Below, piece after piece: positions 2,923 through 53,316 of a DNA stretch of 64,000 nt; within the stretch, counting starts at the first letter, position 1; each line of letters starts with the position of its first letter. The translations under genes and the position numbers were made by a program. The notes under the pieces are model-generated. The model worked only from the letters and a program-made list of their open reading frames with translations, did not search any database and had not been told where the DNA came from. The DNA is from Candidatus Staskawiczbacteria bacterium. GTDB taxonomy: Bacteria; Patescibacteriota; Minisyncoccia; Minisyncoccales; Staskawiczbacteraceae. Location of the stretch: positions 28-64,027 of the forward strand of contig CAIYRH010000002.1 of assembly GCA_903928565.1 (NCBI GenBank), read 5' to 3'.

Positions 2923-4587
2923 TCAGGCGACGTCGTCGGTGGCCATTTCGGCGTCATCTTCCGGTTGCTCCGGAGTCGTCGCCTCGTGGGTCACCTTCGT
3001 TTGCCACCTTATTTTATCGAGGTACCAGCCAAGGCGGTGACTTGCCATGGTGACCGTTGCGGGGAATCGTTTTCCCTCGAACTCTGCAAGCACGGGCTTG
3101 AGGTTTGATGCAATTTCCATCACCTCGAGCTCACGCTTGCCATCTTCCGCAGGCACCCATTTGACAAGGAGCCCCGGATTGACTACATCCTCGCTGGTGA
3201 CGATTCCATCGAGGTGCAAGAGACACGGCTTGTTCAAGAGGTCGTCCTGAGACTTGCCGTTGAGCCCGAAGAACTCAACGGGCGACAGCTCGCTCACGCC
3301 TTGCATTAGGCGGATTTCCTCCGCCCGTTTTTCGGCGTCGATGGCTGCGACCCATGCCCTGTGGAACATGTACCAGAGCTTCGCCGCTTTGTCGGCCCTT
3401 TTGCGTGCATCTGGATAGGGACAGCGCAGTTTGGCCTTGATTGTATCGGCGAGGTCGAGTTTCTTTCTATCGACCTCCTCGAATTTCCACCCGGTCAGGG
3501 CTTTCCGTCCGAGGCGGACTTCCAACTTCACCATCTCGTCGATGGCGGCTTCCAAGGACCCAACGCCTTTCAAGGGAAAGACGGCGTTCCCGCTGAATTC
3601 CAGGAACAAGTTTCCCCCACCACGCCGGCGCCAAACCATTTTTGGTTTGCCGTCGACGACGATCACGTTGCCGTGGTCGTCGGTGTCTTTGGCGAGGTAG
3701 AACTCGGTGGGAACTGCGATACAGCACTTGCCGTCCGCGGCTTCCATGATCGCCTGCTTGGCCGTGATGTTGACCTCGCTGGTGATGCGAGTCAAGGCCG
3801 CGGAGCGCCGTTGGGCTTCTAAGCGGTCCGACAGGCGAGTCAGCTTGTTAGCAGCCGCGGTGAGGCGGCGAACTTGCCCGGGCAAGAAGCCCAGTTTCGC
3901 GGGAAACTGGAACAACCCGTACCCAACGCGGACCGTTGTGCGGTCTTGTTCCCGGTTGTCGACCGGGACCAACAAGCCTCGTTTGATGAGGCCCTTTGGG
4001 CCGTGGATGAGGTCCTTGATTTGTTTCGACGAGGACCAGGCCATCGTCAGAATCGCGTCAAGGAACCCGAGGGCGGCGGCAGTGAGATACACGCCCGTGC
4101 GAGCCAAAGCTTTGTCGATTTGCTCCTCGGCAGCAGCGATAACCGCCCCCGAGGTTTGCTTGACGGACTGCACGGCGATTTCGTCGCCGGTCGCTTCCGC
4201 ATCGGCGATGGCCTTGAGTGGCGAAAACATGAAAGCGACTGCGGCAGCCATTGCGGCCTCCACTTTCTTGGCGTTTTCCTGCAGTTTTTTCGGGTCGGCG
4301 TCGTCGCCGAGTACTGGGGCGACGAAATCGAAGCATTCTTCCTGTTGGGGAAGAGCAACGGTTTCGCCTTCGGCCGGTTTGGCAACCGAGGCCGCGACGA
4401 GGGCCTTGAGACTCGGCTTGACGGGTTCTTTGGGCCCTTTCTTGCCGCCCTTCTTTTCGGGAAGTGCCGGCTGTTGCGCTTGGGTGCCACCATTGACGGC
4501 GGCTTCCAACACATCGCCGAGGTTTGTTGTCGGCGGCGGGCTGGTGGGCGTCAATGTTAGCTTTTCTAGTTCTGGGGTTGGTTTCAT
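2923..4587 (-). CDS. Orphan high-GC protein, 554 aa, no recognised family
   Basis: Long uninterrupted ORF with strong GC3 codon bias, foreign to the AT-rich backbone. It has its own promoter and terminator. P/T/K-rich N-terminus, one hydrophobic stretch (TGVYLTAAALGFLDAILTMAW), no motif I recognise. Confidence 0.75.
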   Translation of the reverse strand: MKPTPELEKLTLTPTSPPPTTNLGDVLEAAVNGGTQAQQPALPEKKGGKKGPKEPVKPSLKALVAASVAKPAEGETVALPQQEECFDFVAPVLGDDADPKKLQENAKKVEAAMAAAVAFMFSPLKAIADAEATGDEIAVQSVKQTSGAVIAAAEEQIDKALARTGVYLTAAALGFLDAILTMAWSSSKQIKDLIHGPKGLIKRGLLVPVDNREQDRTTVRVGYGLFQFPAKLGFLPGQVRRLTAAANKLTRLSDRLEAQRRSAALTRITSEVNITAKQAIMEAADGKCCIAVPTEFYLAKDTDDHGNVIVVDGKPKMVWRRRGGGNLFLEFSGNAVFPLKGVGSLEAAIDEMVKLEVRLGRKALTGWKFEEVDRKKLDLADTIKAKLRCPYPDARKRADKAAKLWYMFHRAWVAAIDAEKRAEEIRLMQGVSELSPVEFFGLNGKSQDDLLNKPCLLHLDGIVTSEDVVNPGLLVKWVPAEDGKRELEVMEIASNLKPVLAEFEGKRFPATVTMASHRLGWYLDKIRWQTKVTHEATTPEQPEDDAEMATDDVA

Positions 4588-45705: not shown

Positions 45706-46206
45706 ATGGCAGTTGTATTTATATCACCAAAAAAGAGGCAAAGAATGTTTTTCCTAGTTATAACACTAATGTTTGTGTTGTTTTTGGTGTTTGTTTTCCT
45801 TGGAGTAATTTTTTCTGCGCCAAAAGAAGTGCCGCCAATTGTGGTTTTAAATACTTCAAAAGTTAACATAGATATGACTATTTTTGATTCTGTAAAATTT
45901 AAAAACCTTCAGGCATTTCCGGAAATGGGCGACCAATATAGATACAAAGCTACCGCCCGAAACAAAACCGTGCAAGAAGGTTTTATAGCAGCAGATTCGG
46001 CAACTTCGGCAGTGCAAATTTTACAAAAAATGGGGTTTACAAATCCAAGTTTGCAAAAAGTTGAAGCCGGTAGAGAAAATCCTTTTATTAAATATTATAC
46101 TGTTCCGCCACCTCCTGCAGAAACTACTACAACCACAACCCAAACAACAACCGCCGCAGACGGCTCGGCAACACCACCCCCTGCAGGGCAAAACACCGTG
46201 CAATAA
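45706..46206 (+). CDS. Membrane-anchored hypothetical protein of the pilus operon
   Basis: 166 aa with an N-terminal TM and a T/P-rich tail. No family recognised. Confidence 0.5.
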   Translation: MAVVFISPKKRQRMFFLVITLMFVLFLVFVFLGVIFSAPKEVPPIVVLNTSKVNIDMTIFDSVKFKNLQAFPEMGDQYRYKATARNKTVQEGFIAADSATSAVQILQKMGFTNPSLQKVEAGRENPFIKYYTVPPPPAETTTTTTQTTTAADGSATPPPAGQNTVQ

Positions 46207-51513: not shown

Positions 51514-51572
51514 CTTGCGCAGATTAATAGCATAAATTTATTATAAATAAATTTAAAACAGGGCTCTTTATT

Positions 51573-51610
51573 GGGCTCTGTTTTTTTTTTGGAGTCATTT
51601 TAAATAGTAT
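51573..51610 (+). terminator. Intrinsic terminator after the second pilin
   Basis: AACAGGGCTC-TTTATT-GGGCTCTGTT (with G-U pairs) followed by a T-run of about 10. Confidence 0.55.
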
Positions 51611-51637: not shown

Positions 51638-51673
51638 TATGCGTCTTTTTGGCGTACGCCAAAAAGACGCATA
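51638..51673. repeat. Perfect palindrome, left copy (flanks PaaX-like gene)
   Basis: tATGCGTCTTTTTGGCGTACGCCAAAAAGACGCATa. The 34-nt core is its own reverse complement and is identical to the core at 52374-52407. Confidence 0.85.
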
Positions 51674-51743
51674 TTTAACGCCGATAATTTTTGTTATATA
51701 ATATAATAATCATTGTTATAATAATAAAGTAACAAGATAGAAC

Positions 51744-52370
51744 ATGAAAACAATTTCAACGGAGATTAAGAAATTACAAAGAAAAATAAATTATTCGAAG
51801 CACGACATAACCCAAAAAATTATATTGCATTTAGCCAATTGCATGGATTTTAGTTTTTCTTATACTCTTAATAAGAAATTAGGTCTTCCACAATTTCCCG
51901 GCAGAGTGTTAAGAGATTTGCTGAAAGCTGATGACAGAGATTTTGGAGATAGCATTACAGAGTTGAAAAGATTACATCTTATAGAGAAAAAAGTAAACTA
52001 TGACGGTTCCATTTTAATTTCTCTAACTAGCAGAGGTAAATTAAGGGCACTTAACATGCGCTTTAAGCATTTAGAAAGAGTGCACAAGAATGAAAAATGG
52101 GATGGGAAGTGGCGCATGGTGGCCTATGATATCCCTGACGAATTTAAACGGGGACGCGACGCATTAAGATATAGGGCACACATTGCCGGATTTTATGAAC
52201 TCCAGAAGAGTCTATTTTTGTACCCCTATGACTGCCAGAAAGAAATAGAAGATTTTGTGCAATTGTTTAAATTAGAAAAATATGTACGTTTCGCATTATT
52301 AGATTTCATAGACAATCAAGATTTTCTACTGCGAAAATTTAAATTAAATTGCAGGGAAGTAGCGCAATAA
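51744..52370 (+). CDS. PaaX-like transcriptional regulator (wHTH + Cas2-like middle domain)
   Basis: WDGKWRMVAYDIPDEFKRGRDALRYRAHIAGFYELQKSLFLYPYDC matches the PaaX-family W.G.W..V.F.IPE..R..R..LR..L...GF pattern. Confidence 0.6.
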   Translation: MKTISTEIKKLQRKINYSKHDITQKIILHLANCMDFSFSYTLNKKLGLPQFPGRVLRDLLKADDRDFGDSITELKRLHLIEKKVNYDGSILISLTSRGKLRALNMRFKHLERVHKNEKWDGKWRMVAYDIPDEFKRGRDALRYRAHIAGFYELQKSLFLYPYDCQKEIEDFVQLFKLEKYVRFALLDFIDNQDFLLRKFKLNCREVAQ

Positions 52371-52411
52371 AATATGCGTCTTTTTGGCGTACGCCAAAAA
52401 GACGCATATTT
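52370..52411. repeat. Perfect palindrome, right copy
   Basis: aaatATGCGTCTTTTTGGCGTACGCCAAAAAGACGCATattt. Palindromic over 42 nt, starting at the last base of the PaaX-like stop codon. Confidence 0.85.
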
Positions 52412-52461
52412 AATGTTTTTGGATGGTTTTAAAGAGTATATAAAAATGGTAAAATAATTTA

Positions 52462-53316
52462 ATGAATTTGAATTTAATAAATGAGATTTTTGCCCCGACT
52501 TCGTCGTGGGTCCTCGACAGCCTTTTAGCTGTCGGGATTTTCATTTTTGGGGCCTGTATTGGCAGTTTTTTGAATTGCGTAATTTATAGGTTAGAAGAAG
52601 AAAAAAGTTTAAAAGGCAGAAGTTTTTGCCCACATTGCAAGCATATGTTGGCGTGGCACGATTTATTTCCAGTGTTTAGTTTTTTATTTTTAGGGGGGAA
52701 ATGCCGGTATTGTAAGGCCAAAATTTCGGTGCAATACCCGCTAGTAGAAATATCAACGGGCTTGATATTCCTATTAATTTTTAATTTTAAATTTTTCCCG
52801 ATAGCCTCGCTATCGAGGATCCTCGACGGATCTGCCGTCGGGACAATTTTAAATTTGTTTTTTCTTTTTTATATTGCAAGTACTTTAATTATAATTTTCA
52901 TTTACGATTTAAAGCATTATTTAATTCCCGAAGTAGTTTTGCTTCCGGCTGTTGCAATAACATTTATATACCAGTTGTTAAATTTTAAATTGCAAATTTT
53001 ACCTTATTTACTGGCTACTTTTATTGCTGGTGGAATATTTTATTTAATGTATTGGTTGTCAAAAGAAAAAGCAATGGGTTTTGGCGATGTTGAGCTGGTT
53101 GTTTTAATGGGCTTTTTGTTAAGCTGGCCCAATTTAATTTTAGCGCTATTTTTGGCTTTTTTCTTTGGTGCTATAATAGGGCTAGCATTAATGATATTTG
53201 AGGGGAAAAAATTGAAAAGTTTAATTCCTTTTGGACCATTTTTAATTGCGGGCACTTTTATTGCAATGTTTTTTGGAAATTATATAATTCAATGGTATTT
53301 AAATTTAGTAATATGA
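52462..53316 (+). CDS. pilD: Prepilin peptidase PilD (A24 family)
   Basis: N-terminal Zn-finger CPHC...CRYC, polytopic, catalytic Asp contexts (IYDLKHY..., GFGDVEL). Confidence 0.85.
   Translation: MNLNLINEIFAPTSSWVLDSLLAVGIFIFGACIGSFLNCVIYRLEEEKSLKGRSFCPHCKHMLAWHDLFPVFSFLFLGGKCRYCKAKISVQYPLVEISTGLIFLLIFNFKFFPIASLSRILDGSAVGTILNLFFLFYIASTLIIIFIYDLKHYLIPEVVLLPAVAITFIYQLLNFKLQILPYLLATFIAGGIFYLMYWLSKEKAMGFGDVELVVLMGFLLSWPNLILALFLAFFFGAIIGLALMIFEGKKLKSLIPFGPFLIAGTFIAMFFGNYIIQWYLNLVI
52493..52534. repeat. GC-rich twin-hairpin element, in frame in pilD (copy 1)
   Basis: ccccgacttcgtcgtggg plus CGACAGC-CTTTTA-GCTGTCG. Shares (g/a)tcctcgac(a/g)g...gtcggga with copy 2. Encodes SSWVLDSLLAVG. Confidence 0.6.
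52799..52840. repeat. GC-rich twin-hairpin element, in frame in pilD (copy 2)
   Basis: CGATAGC-CTC-GCTATCG plus CGACGG-ATCTG-CCGTCG. Encodes IASLSRILDGSAVG. Confidence 0.6.

What the first reader, a model, noticed from the sequence alone, without database searches (positions are those of the whole stretch)
51638..52411. PaaX-like regulator gene bracketed by two identical perfect palindromes in the middle of the pilus operon
Seen: the 34-nt perfect palindrome ATGCGTCTTTTTGGCGTACGCCAAAAAGACGCAT occurs twice, at 51639-51672 and 52374-52407. The identical stretch spans about 40 nt (tatgcg...catatttaa), and the right copy is palindromic over 42 nt. The two copies flank one gene, with the right copy starting at the last base of its stop codon. 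The gene encodes a PaaX-family-like protein (WDGKWRMVAYDIPDEFKRGRDALRYRAHIAGFYELQKSLFLYPYDC) and interrupts the otherwise contiguous pilin-pilin-[X]-pilD-minor pilin series. Inference: (a) paired operator sites for the dimeric regulator, giving an autoregulated insulated cassette that controls read-through from the pilins into pilD and the minor pilins; (b) bidirectional terminator/insulator hairpins (15-bp stems); or (c) the ends of a small inserted cassette.
Basis: partly seen in the sequence, partly recalled or inferred. Interest (0 to 1): 0.6.

Follow-up and report, generated by a model that had tools for sequence, protein, structure and literature searches.

The report
Palindrome-bracketed mini-PaaX regulator gene cassette
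A small DNA-binding protein gene sitting between the pilin and prepilin-peptidase genes of a candidate-phyla-radiation bacterium is flanked by two identical perfect palindromes. The same layout recurs across many relatives of the gene, which makes it look like a self-contained, self-regulating accessory cassette rather than a built-in pilus regulator.

Summary
An exact 41-nt repeat lies at 51638-51678 and 52373-52413. Its core is a 36-nt perfect palindrome, 42 nt in the right copy. The two copies bracket one 208-aa gene (51744-52370).

The protein is a "mini-PaaX": a winged helix plus a Cas2-like PaaX_M domain, with no ligand-binding C-domain.

The layout is family-wide. Of 72 related loci, 58 have a long perfect palindrome beside the gene and 39 have one on both sides. 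This holds in pilus loci and in at least five housekeeping contexts. The two copies at a locus are alike (81%), while copies from different loci differ (45%).

The upstream copy ends 4-21 nt before an extended -10 element in 42 of 52 loci, which is an operator position. The downstream copies have no U-tract, so they are not canonical terminators.

The cassette is accessory. The closest pilD locus lacks it, and another locus carries an AbiE-type (AbiEii) toxin-antitoxin module in the same slot.

Best reading: these are dyad operators of about 36-40 bp, the same span as E. coli PaaX operators, giving autoregulation and insulation. A mobile or recombination origin is not excluded.

The parts
51555..51594 (+). 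Canonical intrinsic terminator of the second pilin gene (stem CAGGGCTC...GGGCTCTG followed by T10). It marks the left border of the variable slot.
   Evidence: -17 kcal/mol, z -5. An orthologous terminator is present in L003, L004, L110 and in the cassette-less locus L190.
51638..51678 (.). Left copy of the 41-nt repeat. It holds a 36-nt perfect palindrome, TATGCGTC-TTTTT-GGCGT|ACGCC-AAAAA-GACGCATA (51638-51673), and is the proposed upstream operator.
   Evidence: Hairpin -25.6 kcal/mol, z -7. Family-wide counterpart.
51675..51722 (+). Promoter region of the cassette gene: TTAACG-16 nt-TATAAT (51675-51702), plus a second extended -10, TGTTATAAT (51714-51722). The -35 hexamer overlaps the last bases of the 41-nt repeat.
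   Evidence: and direct reading. Across the family, TGnTAnnnT lies 4-21 nt after the upstream palindrome in 42 of 52 loci, against 3 of 51 in the control.
51744..52370 (+). Gene for a 208-aa mini-PaaX protein: N-terminal helix, winged helix-turn-helix, and Cas2-like PaaX_M domain, with no C-terminal ligand domain.
   Evidence: AF2 model pLDDT 85. Best PDB fold match is E. coli PaaX 8a39. Per-member Pfam scan.
52370..52413 (.). Right copy. A 42-nt perfect palindrome (52370-52411) starts at the last base of the stop codon, and the 41-nt repeat spans 52373-52413. It is the proposed second operator or roadblock.
   Evidence: Hairpin -28.9 kcal/mol.
52447..52464 (+). pilD's own extended -10 promoter (TGGTAAAAT), with the ATG 6 nt later, so the mRNA is probably leaderless. 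It marks the right border of the variable slot.
   Evidence: and direct reading. The same sequence precedes pilD in L001, L004 and the cassette-less L190.

Best explanation
The region 51638-52413 is a self-contained accessory cassette. It encodes a homodimeric DNA-binding protein of the PaaX lineage: a winged helix plus a Cas2-like dimerisation domain, with no effector domain. The two flanking palindromes are most likely that protein's dyad-symmetric binding sites.

The upstream site abuts or overlaps the -35 zone of the gene's own promoter, so the bound protein represses its own transcription. The downstream site, placed at the stop codon, would act as a second operator. It could loop with the upstream site or act as a protein roadblock, which would seal the unit off from the pilin transcript upstream and the independently promoted pilD downstream.

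The proposed binding geometry puts the Cas2-like dimer core over the GC-rich centre and T5/A5 tracts, with the two winged helices reaching the variable outer arms about 14-20 bp from the dyad.

Shown here:
- The anatomy of the cassette.
- Its family-wide recurrence.
- The promoter spacing of the upstream palindrome.
- The accessory status of the cassette.

Inferred only:
- That this protein binds these sites.
- Whether it represses or activates.
- The looping or roadblock role of the downstream copy.
For: (1) The protein is a PaaX-type DNA-binding fold. It hits PaaX_M. The AF2 model shows a wHTH plus a Cas2-like fold, and its best PDB match is PaaX 8a39, followed by MarR-type regulators.

(2) Palindromes are tied to this gene family. 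There are 91 perfect palindromes with arms of at least 14 nt in 86.5 kb around family genes, against 6 in 391.7 kb elsewhere in the same loci. Of 72 loci, 39 have both copies, 10 only the upstream one, and 9 only the downstream one. In the window, sites occur only at the gene's flanks.

(3) The position fits an operator. An extended -10 lies 4-21 nt after the upstream palindrome in 42 of 52 loci, against 3 of 51 in the control. The upstream palindrome is also present where the upstream gene is divergent.

(4) The inner half-site is conserved at fixed spacing: T5-6, G at +1 (77%), C at +3 (71%), 4-5 nt from the dyad.

(5) The copies at one locus are alike (81% arm identity) while copies from different loci are 45% identical.

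(6) The 34-42-bp span equals the 39-bp span of the E. coli PaaX operator TGATTC-N27-GAATCA, and PaaX represses its own promoter by steric hindrance (PMC9493321).

(7) Outer-arm bases 14-20 nt from the dyad co-vary most with recognition-helix and wing residues (67, 71, 73, 76, 77, 95). Central bases co-vary most with helix alpha1 of the Cas2-like domain (132, 135, 139, 142).
Against: No binding data exist.

The palindromes are perfect over 17-26 nt per arm (14 mismatches in 1786 pairs). Where the two copies of one locus differ, each copy stays perfect on its own (L004, L001, L109, L113). That is more symmetry than a dimeric regulator normally imposes, and it points to an added hairpin, cruciform or template-switch constraint.

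Orthologues with near-identical recognition helices have different GC cores.

The co-variation signal is confounded by phylogeny and by matching of evolutionary rates.

Fourteen of 72 loci keep the gene without palindromes, including the pilus-locus orthologue L006.

A protein that regulates only itself has no obvious benefit to the host.
Confidence: 0.55

Rival explanations
1. The palindromes are the ends or recombination sites of a mobile or formerly mobile cassette. Two identical palindromes are at once direct and inverted repeats, so the roughly 775-bp unit has the layout of a minimal insertion sequence: the promoter sits in the left end and the stop codon in the right end. On this reading the wHTH-Cas2-like protein acts on hairpin or cruciform ends. 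Binding at its own ends would also autoregulate it, as in many insertion sequences, so this explanation overlaps with the best one.
For: The exact unit palindrome-gene-palindrome recurs in at least 6 unrelated contexts: pilin|pilD, rpoC|ftsK, fusA|tuf, map|tpiA, PBP2|lysS and trpS|RNase J.

The unit shows presence/absence in orthologous pilus loci, and the same slot holds an AbiE-type toxin-antitoxin module in L190.

In L154 an extra GC-rich small ORF is bracketed by a third copy of the same palindrome.

A solo related palindrome in the 738-kb Staskawiczbacteria contig lies inside prmC. It coincides with a 9-codon insertion relative to a 64%-identical orthologue.

The central dinucleotide is flipped between copies in some loci.

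There is Watson-Crick-only perfection and rich double-sided variation.

The Cas2-type 'YDIP' aspartate is nearly invariant, and 5 of 30 members weakly hit the Cas2 Pfam family.
Against: No known transposase or recombinase motif is present, and the protein hits nothing in PADLOC or PHROGs.

I saw no target-site duplication.

Paralogues are old (about 45-60% identity), and each keeps its genomic position across genomes.

The identical protein P0017 sits in the same neighbourhood on 24 contigs.

Only 2-3 related palindromes occur in a 738-kb contig, and none in the remaining 63 kb of the window.

The family is absent from viral contigs.
Confidence: 0.2
2. The palindromes work as RNA hairpins: terminators, insulators, RNase III sites or stabilisers that bracket the mRNA. 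They are independent of the encoded protein, and the similarity of the two copies is kept by gene conversion.
For: The predicted hairpins are very stable (-25.6 and -28.9 kcal/mol, z about -7).

The consensus scan flags the right copy on the + strand and the left copy on the - strand as terminator-like.

Some downstream copies have A-run...T-run outer ends (L108, L115, L170).

Twenty of 58 downstream neighbours are convergent.
Against: The upstream copy lies upstream of the gene's own -10 element, so it is not in its own mRNA. It also occurs between divergent genes.

The T content after downstream copies is at background, with no strand bias (3.7 against 3.6; background 3.2).

There is no excess of G:T over A:C mismatches and few GU pairs.

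Canonical terminators of a different design are used in the same loci.

There is no Rfam match.

Hairpin function does not explain the conserved TTTTTGnC grammar at fixed distance from the dyad.
Confidence: 0.12
3. The pair is an integral, pilus-specific regulatory device: the regulator tunes the pilin to pilD/minor-pilin expression ratio.
For: Six orthologous pilus loci keep the gene at pilin|pilD, at 57-70% protein identity.
Against: The closest pilD relative (68%) has pilin directly followed by pilD. Another locus (66%) has a toxin-antitoxin module in that slot, with the pilD promoter unchanged.

There are no further sites anywhere in the 64-kb window, including the other pilus promoters.

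Most family members are in non-pilus contexts.
Confidence: 0.08

Closest known systems
PaaX, the phenylacetyl-CoA-responsive repressor of E. coli and Pseudomonas (PDB 8a39; TIGR02277)
   Same: Both have a wHTH followed by a Cas2-like central dimerisation domain. PaaX's operator is dyad-symmetric with a very long span (TGATTC-N27-GAATCA, 39 bp). PaaX represses its own promoter by steric hindrance.
   Different: This protein has no C-terminal ligand-binding domain and no paa genes nearby. It scores 24 bits against the equivalog cutoff of 264. Its sites are perfect palindromes over the whole span, present on both sides of the gene. It belongs to a large family of about 180-aa proteins centred on Parcubacteria.
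Insertion sequences whose transposase promoter lies in the left inverted repeat and whose stop codon lies in or near the right one, with autoregulation by end binding. This comparison rests on general knowledge of IS organisation, not on a test made here.
   Same: The unit is compact, about 775 bp. Identical terminal repeats bracket one gene. The promoter abuts the left repeat and the stop codon overlaps the right repeat. The unit shows presence/absence among relatives.
   Different: There is no transposase fold or motif and no target duplication. There are no multiple identical copies, and positions are conserved over deep divergence.
REP/RAYT pairs and Rickettsia palindromic elements. This comparison is from general knowledge.
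   Same: A gene is flanked by hairpin-forming palindromes. One solo palindrome is inserted in-frame in a coding gene, prmC in L037.
   Different: There is no HUH/Y1 transposase. The palindromes are not dispersed at high copy: 2 in 64 kb, and 2 hits to the core pattern (3 related palindromes) in 738 kb.
Rho-independent bidirectional terminators
   Same: Both form a stable GC-containing hairpin. The window's right copy is followed by TGTTTTTG.
   Different: The T-run lies inside the 5' arm rather than after the stem. Across the family there is no U-tract enrichment. The upstream copy is promoter-associated.

Membership tests
PaaX family repressor (TIGR02277 / COG3327) | Central Cas2-like domain (Pfam PF20803 PaaX_M) | tested here: met
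   E 4.2e-18, residues 117-185. All 30 of 30 family members hit it.
PaaX family repressor (TIGR02277 / COG3327) | N-terminal winged helix DNA-binding domain | tested here: inconclusive
   There is no Pfam PaaX_N hit. The AF2 model has a wHTH at about residues 52-94 and matches PaaX and MarR-type regulators. Eight of 30 members give weak HTH_27 hits.
PaaX family repressor (TIGR02277 / COG3327) | C-terminal helical effector (phenylacetyl-CoA) domain and full-length equivalog score | tested here: not met
   The protein ends about 20 residues after the Cas2-like domain. The NCBIfam score is 24.3 against a cutoff of 264.55. No C-domain hit appears.
PaaX family repressor (TIGR02277 / COG3327) | Association with paa catabolic genes | tested here: not met
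   Neighbours are type IV pilus genes here and housekeeping genes elsewhere.
PaaX family repressor (TIGR02277 / COG3327) | Binds a long-span dyad operator overlapping its own promoter | not testable with these tools
   The geometry is compatible: the span is 34-42 bp against 39 bp, and the site sits next to the -35 zone. Binding itself was not measured.
Intrinsic (Rho-independent) terminator | Stable stem-loop | tested here: met
   -25.6 and -28.9 kcal/mol, z about -7.
Intrinsic (Rho-independent) terminator | U-tract immediately after the stem on the transcribed strand | tested here: not met
   Across the family, T content after downstream copies equals background and shows no strand bias. The window's right copy has a partial tract. 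The orthologous copies in L003 and L004 have none.
Insertion sequence / MITE-like mobile element | Terminal inverted repeats bracketing the element | tested here: met
   Identical palindromes lie at both ends.
Insertion sequence / MITE-like mobile element | Encoded transposase or recombinase of a known catalytic class | tested here: not met
   Only PaaX_M and weak wHTH or Cas2 hits were found. Nothing appeared in PADLOC or PHROGs. PDB sequence hits were negligible.
Insertion sequence / MITE-like mobile element | Several near-identical copies, or the same element in different neighbourhoods | tested here: not met
   P0017 sits in the same neighbourhood on 24 contigs. Paralogues in one genome are only about 50% identical.
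Insertion sequence / MITE-like mobile element | Presence/absence polymorphism at orthologous sites | tested here: met
   L189 and L190 lack the cassette at pilin|pilD.
REP/RAYT | HUH/Y1 transposase and many dispersed REP copies | tested here: not met
   No such domain was found. There are 2 copies in 64 kb and 2 core matches in a 738-kb contig.

The most novel reading that the evidence does not exclude
The palindrome-bracketed mini-PaaX units are living or fossil members of an undescribed class of small selfish or mobile cassettes in candidate-phyla-radiation bacteria. Their wHTH-Cas2-like protein would recognise and process hairpin or cruciform ends. Their palindromes could seed new cassette insertions, as with the extra ORF in L154. 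They could also land in-frame inside genes, as with prmC in L037.
Probability: 0.15. Interest if true: 0.85.

Novelty: new variant of a known kind. Interest (0 to 1): 0.6.

Why it matters
Candidate-phyla-radiation bacteria have very few recognisable transcription factors, and almost nothing is known about how they regulate genes.

This work gives a large family a concrete, testable cis-element. At least 2,284 clusters at 50% identity match the family profile. The palindrome architecture itself was seen only in the clade close to this gene (about 43% identity or more to the window protein). The cis-element model includes a defined promoter, often leaderless, and a predicted binding geometry.

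The work also shows that the 'regulator in the pilus operon' is an accessory insert in a variable slot. Annotators should not assume it controls piliation.

The unusually perfect, co-varying palindromes on both sides of the gene are not explained by ordinary operator logic. One related palindrome is inserted in-frame in a coding gene, and one extra gene is bracketed by a third copy. Together these could point to a new kind of DNA-level mechanism.

Tried and rejected
- **Genome-wide terminator or REP-like repeat: rejected.** The core pattern scan of 185,579 genomes returned mostly unrelated short hairpins. It found only two sites in the one related 738-kb contig.
- **Known RNA family: none found**.
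- **Defence or phage protein: no hits**. The family is absent from viral contigs.
- **Recent insertion: rejected.** Six orthologous pilus loci carry the gene at 57-70% identity.
- **Canonical terminator: rejected by the U-tract statistics**.
- **Simple recognition code between the recognition helix and the GC core: not seen by eye**. Mutual-information analysis gave a suggestive domain partition, but it is confounded by phylogeny and rate matching.
- **Distant family member P0126:** it has no palindromes, so the architecture is a feature of a clade, not of the whole superfamily.
- **Literature:** five searches (PaaX with CPR, Cas2-like, pili, or structure terms; perfect palindrome with Parcubacteria) found nothing describing this architecture.
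- **Source organism:** Candidatus Staskawiczbacteria is inferred from the nearest homologues.
Full report
**1. The observation**

ATGCGTCTTTTTGGCGTACGCCAAAAAGACGCAT occurs at 51639-51672 and 52374-52407 and nowhere else in the window, even with three mismatches. None is expected in shuffles.

The exact repeat is 41 nt: TATGCG...GCATATTTAA at 51638-51678 and 52373-52413, 735 nt apart. The perfect palindrome is 36 nt on the left (51638-51673). On the right it is 42 nt (52370-52411), starting with the last A of the TAA stop codon.

The two copies flank one ORF, 51744-52370, of 208 aa. The gene order around it is pilB, pilT, pilC, two pilins, this gene, prepilin peptidase pilD, four minor-pilin-like genes, then ligA.

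**2. The protein**

Pfam detects only the central Cas2-like domain of PaaX (PaaX_M, E 4e-18, residues 117-185). The NCBIfam PaaX equivalog scores 24 bits against a cutoff of 264.

An AlphaFold2 model built on 30 homologues has pLDDT 85 and pTM 0.76. It shows a long N-terminal helix, a winged helix-turn-helix (about residues 52-94), a connecting helix, and a ferredoxin-like Cas2 fold (123-186). There is no C-terminal domain.

The best PDB fold match is E. coli PaaX (8a39). It is followed by RbkR, Rv0674 and many MarR-type regulators, and Cas2 proteins match the C-terminal half. The protein is therefore a 'mini-PaaX': the DNA-binding and dimerisation parts without the effector domain.

The family is large. 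A profile search finds 2,284 clusters at 50% identity with E of 1e-10 or better; the best 150 listed are 98-282 aa long, mostly about 180-200 aa. The nearest named homologues are from Candidatus Staskawiczbacteria (Parcubacteria).

**3. The layout is a property of the gene family, not of this locus**

Orthologues at 63-70% identity sit at the same pilin|pilD position in other metagenomic contigs. Each is again flanked by two perfect palindromes with the same inner sequence and different outer arms:
- Window: TATGCGTC|TTTTTGGCGTACGCCAAAAA|GACGCATA.
- L003: TGTCCTGC|...|GCAGGACA, with both copies identical.
- L004: TAGTCTGC|...|GCAGACTA upstream and AGTCGTC|...|GACGACT downstream.
- L001: a 50-nt palindrome upstream, and TAGGCGCG-TTTTTGACGGCCGTCAAAAA-CGCGCCTA downstream.

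I then fetched 80 further loci through a profile of the family and scanned all of them.
- Of 72 loci with both flanks available, 39 have a long palindrome on both sides, 10 only upstream, 9 only downstream and 14 none. A few near-duplicate contigs remain in this set.
- Perfect palindromes with arms of at least 14 nt are about 70 times denser next to family genes than in the rest of the same loci: 91 in 86.5 kb against 6 in 391.7 kb.
- The arms are essentially perfect, with 14 mismatches in 1,786 pairs, and show no excess of G:T over A:C.
- Arm identity between the two copies of a locus is 81%, against 45% between loci.
- In a gap-free alignment of 32 palindromes of identical geometry, positions 9-14 of the arms show 2-5 different Watson-Crick pair types each, with 1-2 unpaired cases out of 32.
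- That alignment has 157 cells with double-sided change, against 77 +/- 6 in shuffles. The covariation score is 0.487 against 0.166, and 0.06-0.14 when partners are slid.
- Pairing decays beyond about 17 nt from the dyad.
- One caveat applies: the sequences were selected for being palindromic, so the informative part is the variety of pairs, not the pairing itself.

**4. Grammar of the palindrome**

The palindromes share a common design. A variable outer arm carries recurrent motifs such as TAGTAGCG, TGGTAGCG or (A)TACGGC. It is followed by a run of 5-6 T, then G (77%) at +1 and C (71%) at +3. The end of the T-run is 5 nt (66%) or 4 nt (24%) from the dyad, and the other arm is the mirror image.

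This design differs from the ordinary terminators in the same loci. Those have an A-run, a GC stem, a 5-6-nt loop and a T-run, as in 51555-51594 after the pilin and its orthologues in L003, L004, L110 and L190.

**5. Relation to transcription signals**

An extended -10 element (TGnTAnnnT) lies 4-21 nt after the end of the upstream palindrome (mode 16) in 42 of 52 loci. In the 60 nt before the palindrome it occurs in 3 of 51. In many loci the ATG follows the -10 by 6-8 nt, so the mRNA is probably leaderless.

The upstream palindrome is therefore centred at roughly -44 to -54, its right arm reaches the -35 zone, and it is not part of the gene's own transcript. In the window the -35-like TTAACG (51675-51680) overlaps the end of the 41-nt repeat. 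TATAAT follows at 51697-51702, and a second TGTTATAAT lies at 51714-51722.

Upstream palindromes also occur where the upstream gene is divergent (L115, L141, L150). There they cannot be terminating anything.

Downstream palindromes start between -9 and +52 nt of the stop codon, mostly within about 20 nt. They are not followed by a U-tract. The T count equals background, with no strand asymmetry. Only 18 of 52 have an extended -10 motif within 60 nt, at scattered distances. Canonical intrinsic termination is therefore not their general role.

**6. The cassette is accessory and its slot is variable**

Only the closest relatives of the gene are in pilus loci. Other groups of the family sit at conserved positions in housekeeping regions:
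- secY-adk-map-x-[gene]-tpiA.
- rpoC-[gene]-ftsK.
- fusA-[gene].
- PBP2-x-[gene]-lysS/asnS.
- trpS/tyrS...[gene]...RNase J.
- [gene]-rmuC-rplU.

I searched with PilD rather than with the cassette protein and found two orthologous pilus loci without the gene.
- In L189 (PilD 68% identical, the closest relative) the last pilin is followed directly by pilD.
- In L190 (66%) the pilin and the same CAGGGCTC terminator are followed by a 66-aa ORF plus an AbiEii toxin gene. pilD follows with the same promoter string, TGGTAAAATAATTTAATG.

The region between the pilin terminator and the pilD promoter is thus a slot that holds different small modules. pilD does not depend on the cassette for its promoter.

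Active mobility is not supported. The identical protein P0017 is found on 24 contigs, always in the same neighbourhood. Paralogues within one genome are only about 50% identical. The family is absent from viral contigs.

**7. Observations that ordinary operator logic does not explain**

- (a) Where the two copies in one locus differ, each stays perfectly symmetric on its own (L004, L001, L109, L113).
- (b) The central dinucleotide is sometimes flipped between the copies (L107, L116, L140, L150) and sometimes not.
- (c) In L154 a third copy of the palindrome and a GC-richer 107-aa membrane ORF lie between rpoC and the cassette. This gives palindrome-ORF-palindrome-gene-palindrome.
- (d) In the 738-kb Staskawiczbacteria contig the core pattern occurs twice. 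One copy is at the pilus cassette. The other is a perfect 34-nt palindrome, AGTCGCGTTTTTGGCGAACGCCAAAAACGCGACT, inside the prmC coding sequence. It coincides with a 9-codon insertion relative to a 64%-identical orthologue.
- (e) The Cas2-type aspartate of the 'YDIP' strand is nearly invariant.

These points keep a DNA-structure or recombination component on the table. One known mutational route could keep long palindromes perfect without selection: template-switch correction of quasi-palindromes. I offer it from general knowledge, and it was not tested here.

**8. Why I still favour operators**

The review PMC9493321 reports that E. coli PaaX binds TGATTC-N27-GAATCA, a dyad site spanning 39 bp. 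It also reports that PaaX represses its own promoter by hindering RNA polymerase. The palindromes here span 34-42 bp and sit beside the -35 zone of the gene's own promoter.

A mutual-information scan over 58 protein/site pairs gave a suggestive partition. Bases 14-20 nt from the dyad co-vary most with residues of the recognition helix and wing (67, 71, 73, 76, 77, 95). Central bases co-vary most with helix alpha1 of the Cas2-like domain (132, 135, 139, 142).

That pattern fits a dimer whose core sits on the dyad with its two winged helices far apart. Shared ancestry and matching of fast-evolving with fast-evolving positions could produce a similar pattern, so I treat it as suggestive only.

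**9. Verdict**

- **Observation:** confirmed.
- **Interpretation (a), paired operators of an autoregulated, insulated cassette:** the best-supported mechanism (confidence about 0.55). It should be read as a self-contained accessory module rather than a pilus-operon regulator.
- **Interpretation (b), terminators:** not supported as a general function.
- **Interpretation (c), ends of an inserted cassette:** true in the sense of an old, accessory unit whose boundaries are the palindromes. Active mobility is not supported.
- **Prior description:** I found none in the searchable literature.

Noticed in passing
window 52447-52464; also L001, L004 and L190 upstream of pilD: pilD appears to be transcribed from a conserved extended -10 promoter (TGGTAAAAT) with the ATG only 6 nt downstream. 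That implies a leaderless mRNA. Many cassette genes show the same TGnTATAAT + 6-8 nt + ATG arrangement.
   Followed up: partly
L037 7565-7598 (contig JBAZUH010000001.1, Candidatus Staskawiczbacteria): A perfect 34-nt palindrome related to the pilus-cassette palindromes of the same genome lies inside the prmC/hemK-like coding sequence. It coincides with a 9-codon insertion relative to the orthologue in L140.
   Followed up: partly
L190 4100-4932 (GCA_026395175.1): An AbiE-type toxin-antitoxin module (a 66-aa ORF plus an AbiEii nucleotidyltransferase gene), with its own promoter and terminator, occupies the pilin|pilD slot that holds the mini-PaaX cassette in the window.
   Followed up: partly
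L154 2557-3203: Between rpoC and the cassette gene lies a GC-richer 107-aa predicted membrane ORF. It is bracketed by a further copy of the same palindrome (TTTTTTGCCTCGAGGCAAAAAA core), which gives the region the look of a cassette array.
   Followed up: partly
window 52783-52856 (inside pilD): A GC-rich imperfect palindrome (two adjacent small hairpins, 73% complementary over 41-nt arms) lies in the AT-rich pilD coding sequence. It coincides with a 7-residue insertion (FPIASLS) in a variable loop relative to six orthologues.
   Followed up: partly
L113 3513-3563 and 5107-5155: A second, different pair of related long palindromes (CGGCTCACAC...GTGTGAGCCG with A/T-rich ends) brackets the cassette together with the next gene. 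That gene is a PD-(D/E)XK/Cas4-like nuclease.
   Followed up: no
L185, about 3620-3740, downstream of the cassette: More than 20 tandem copies of the pentamer GTTTA lie between the downstream palindrome and rmuC.
   Followed up: no
L177 compared with L169 and L150: The downstream palindrome of L177 carries the GCCACGTGGC centre typical of the fusA-context paralogues. Its upstream copy keeps GCCGAACGGC. This hints at exchange between palindromes of different cassettes.
   Followed up: no
window 45706-46206: The ORF upstream of pilB ends in a low-complexity Pro/Thr-rich tail (PPPPAETTTTTTQTTTAADGSATPPPAGQ).
   Followed up: no
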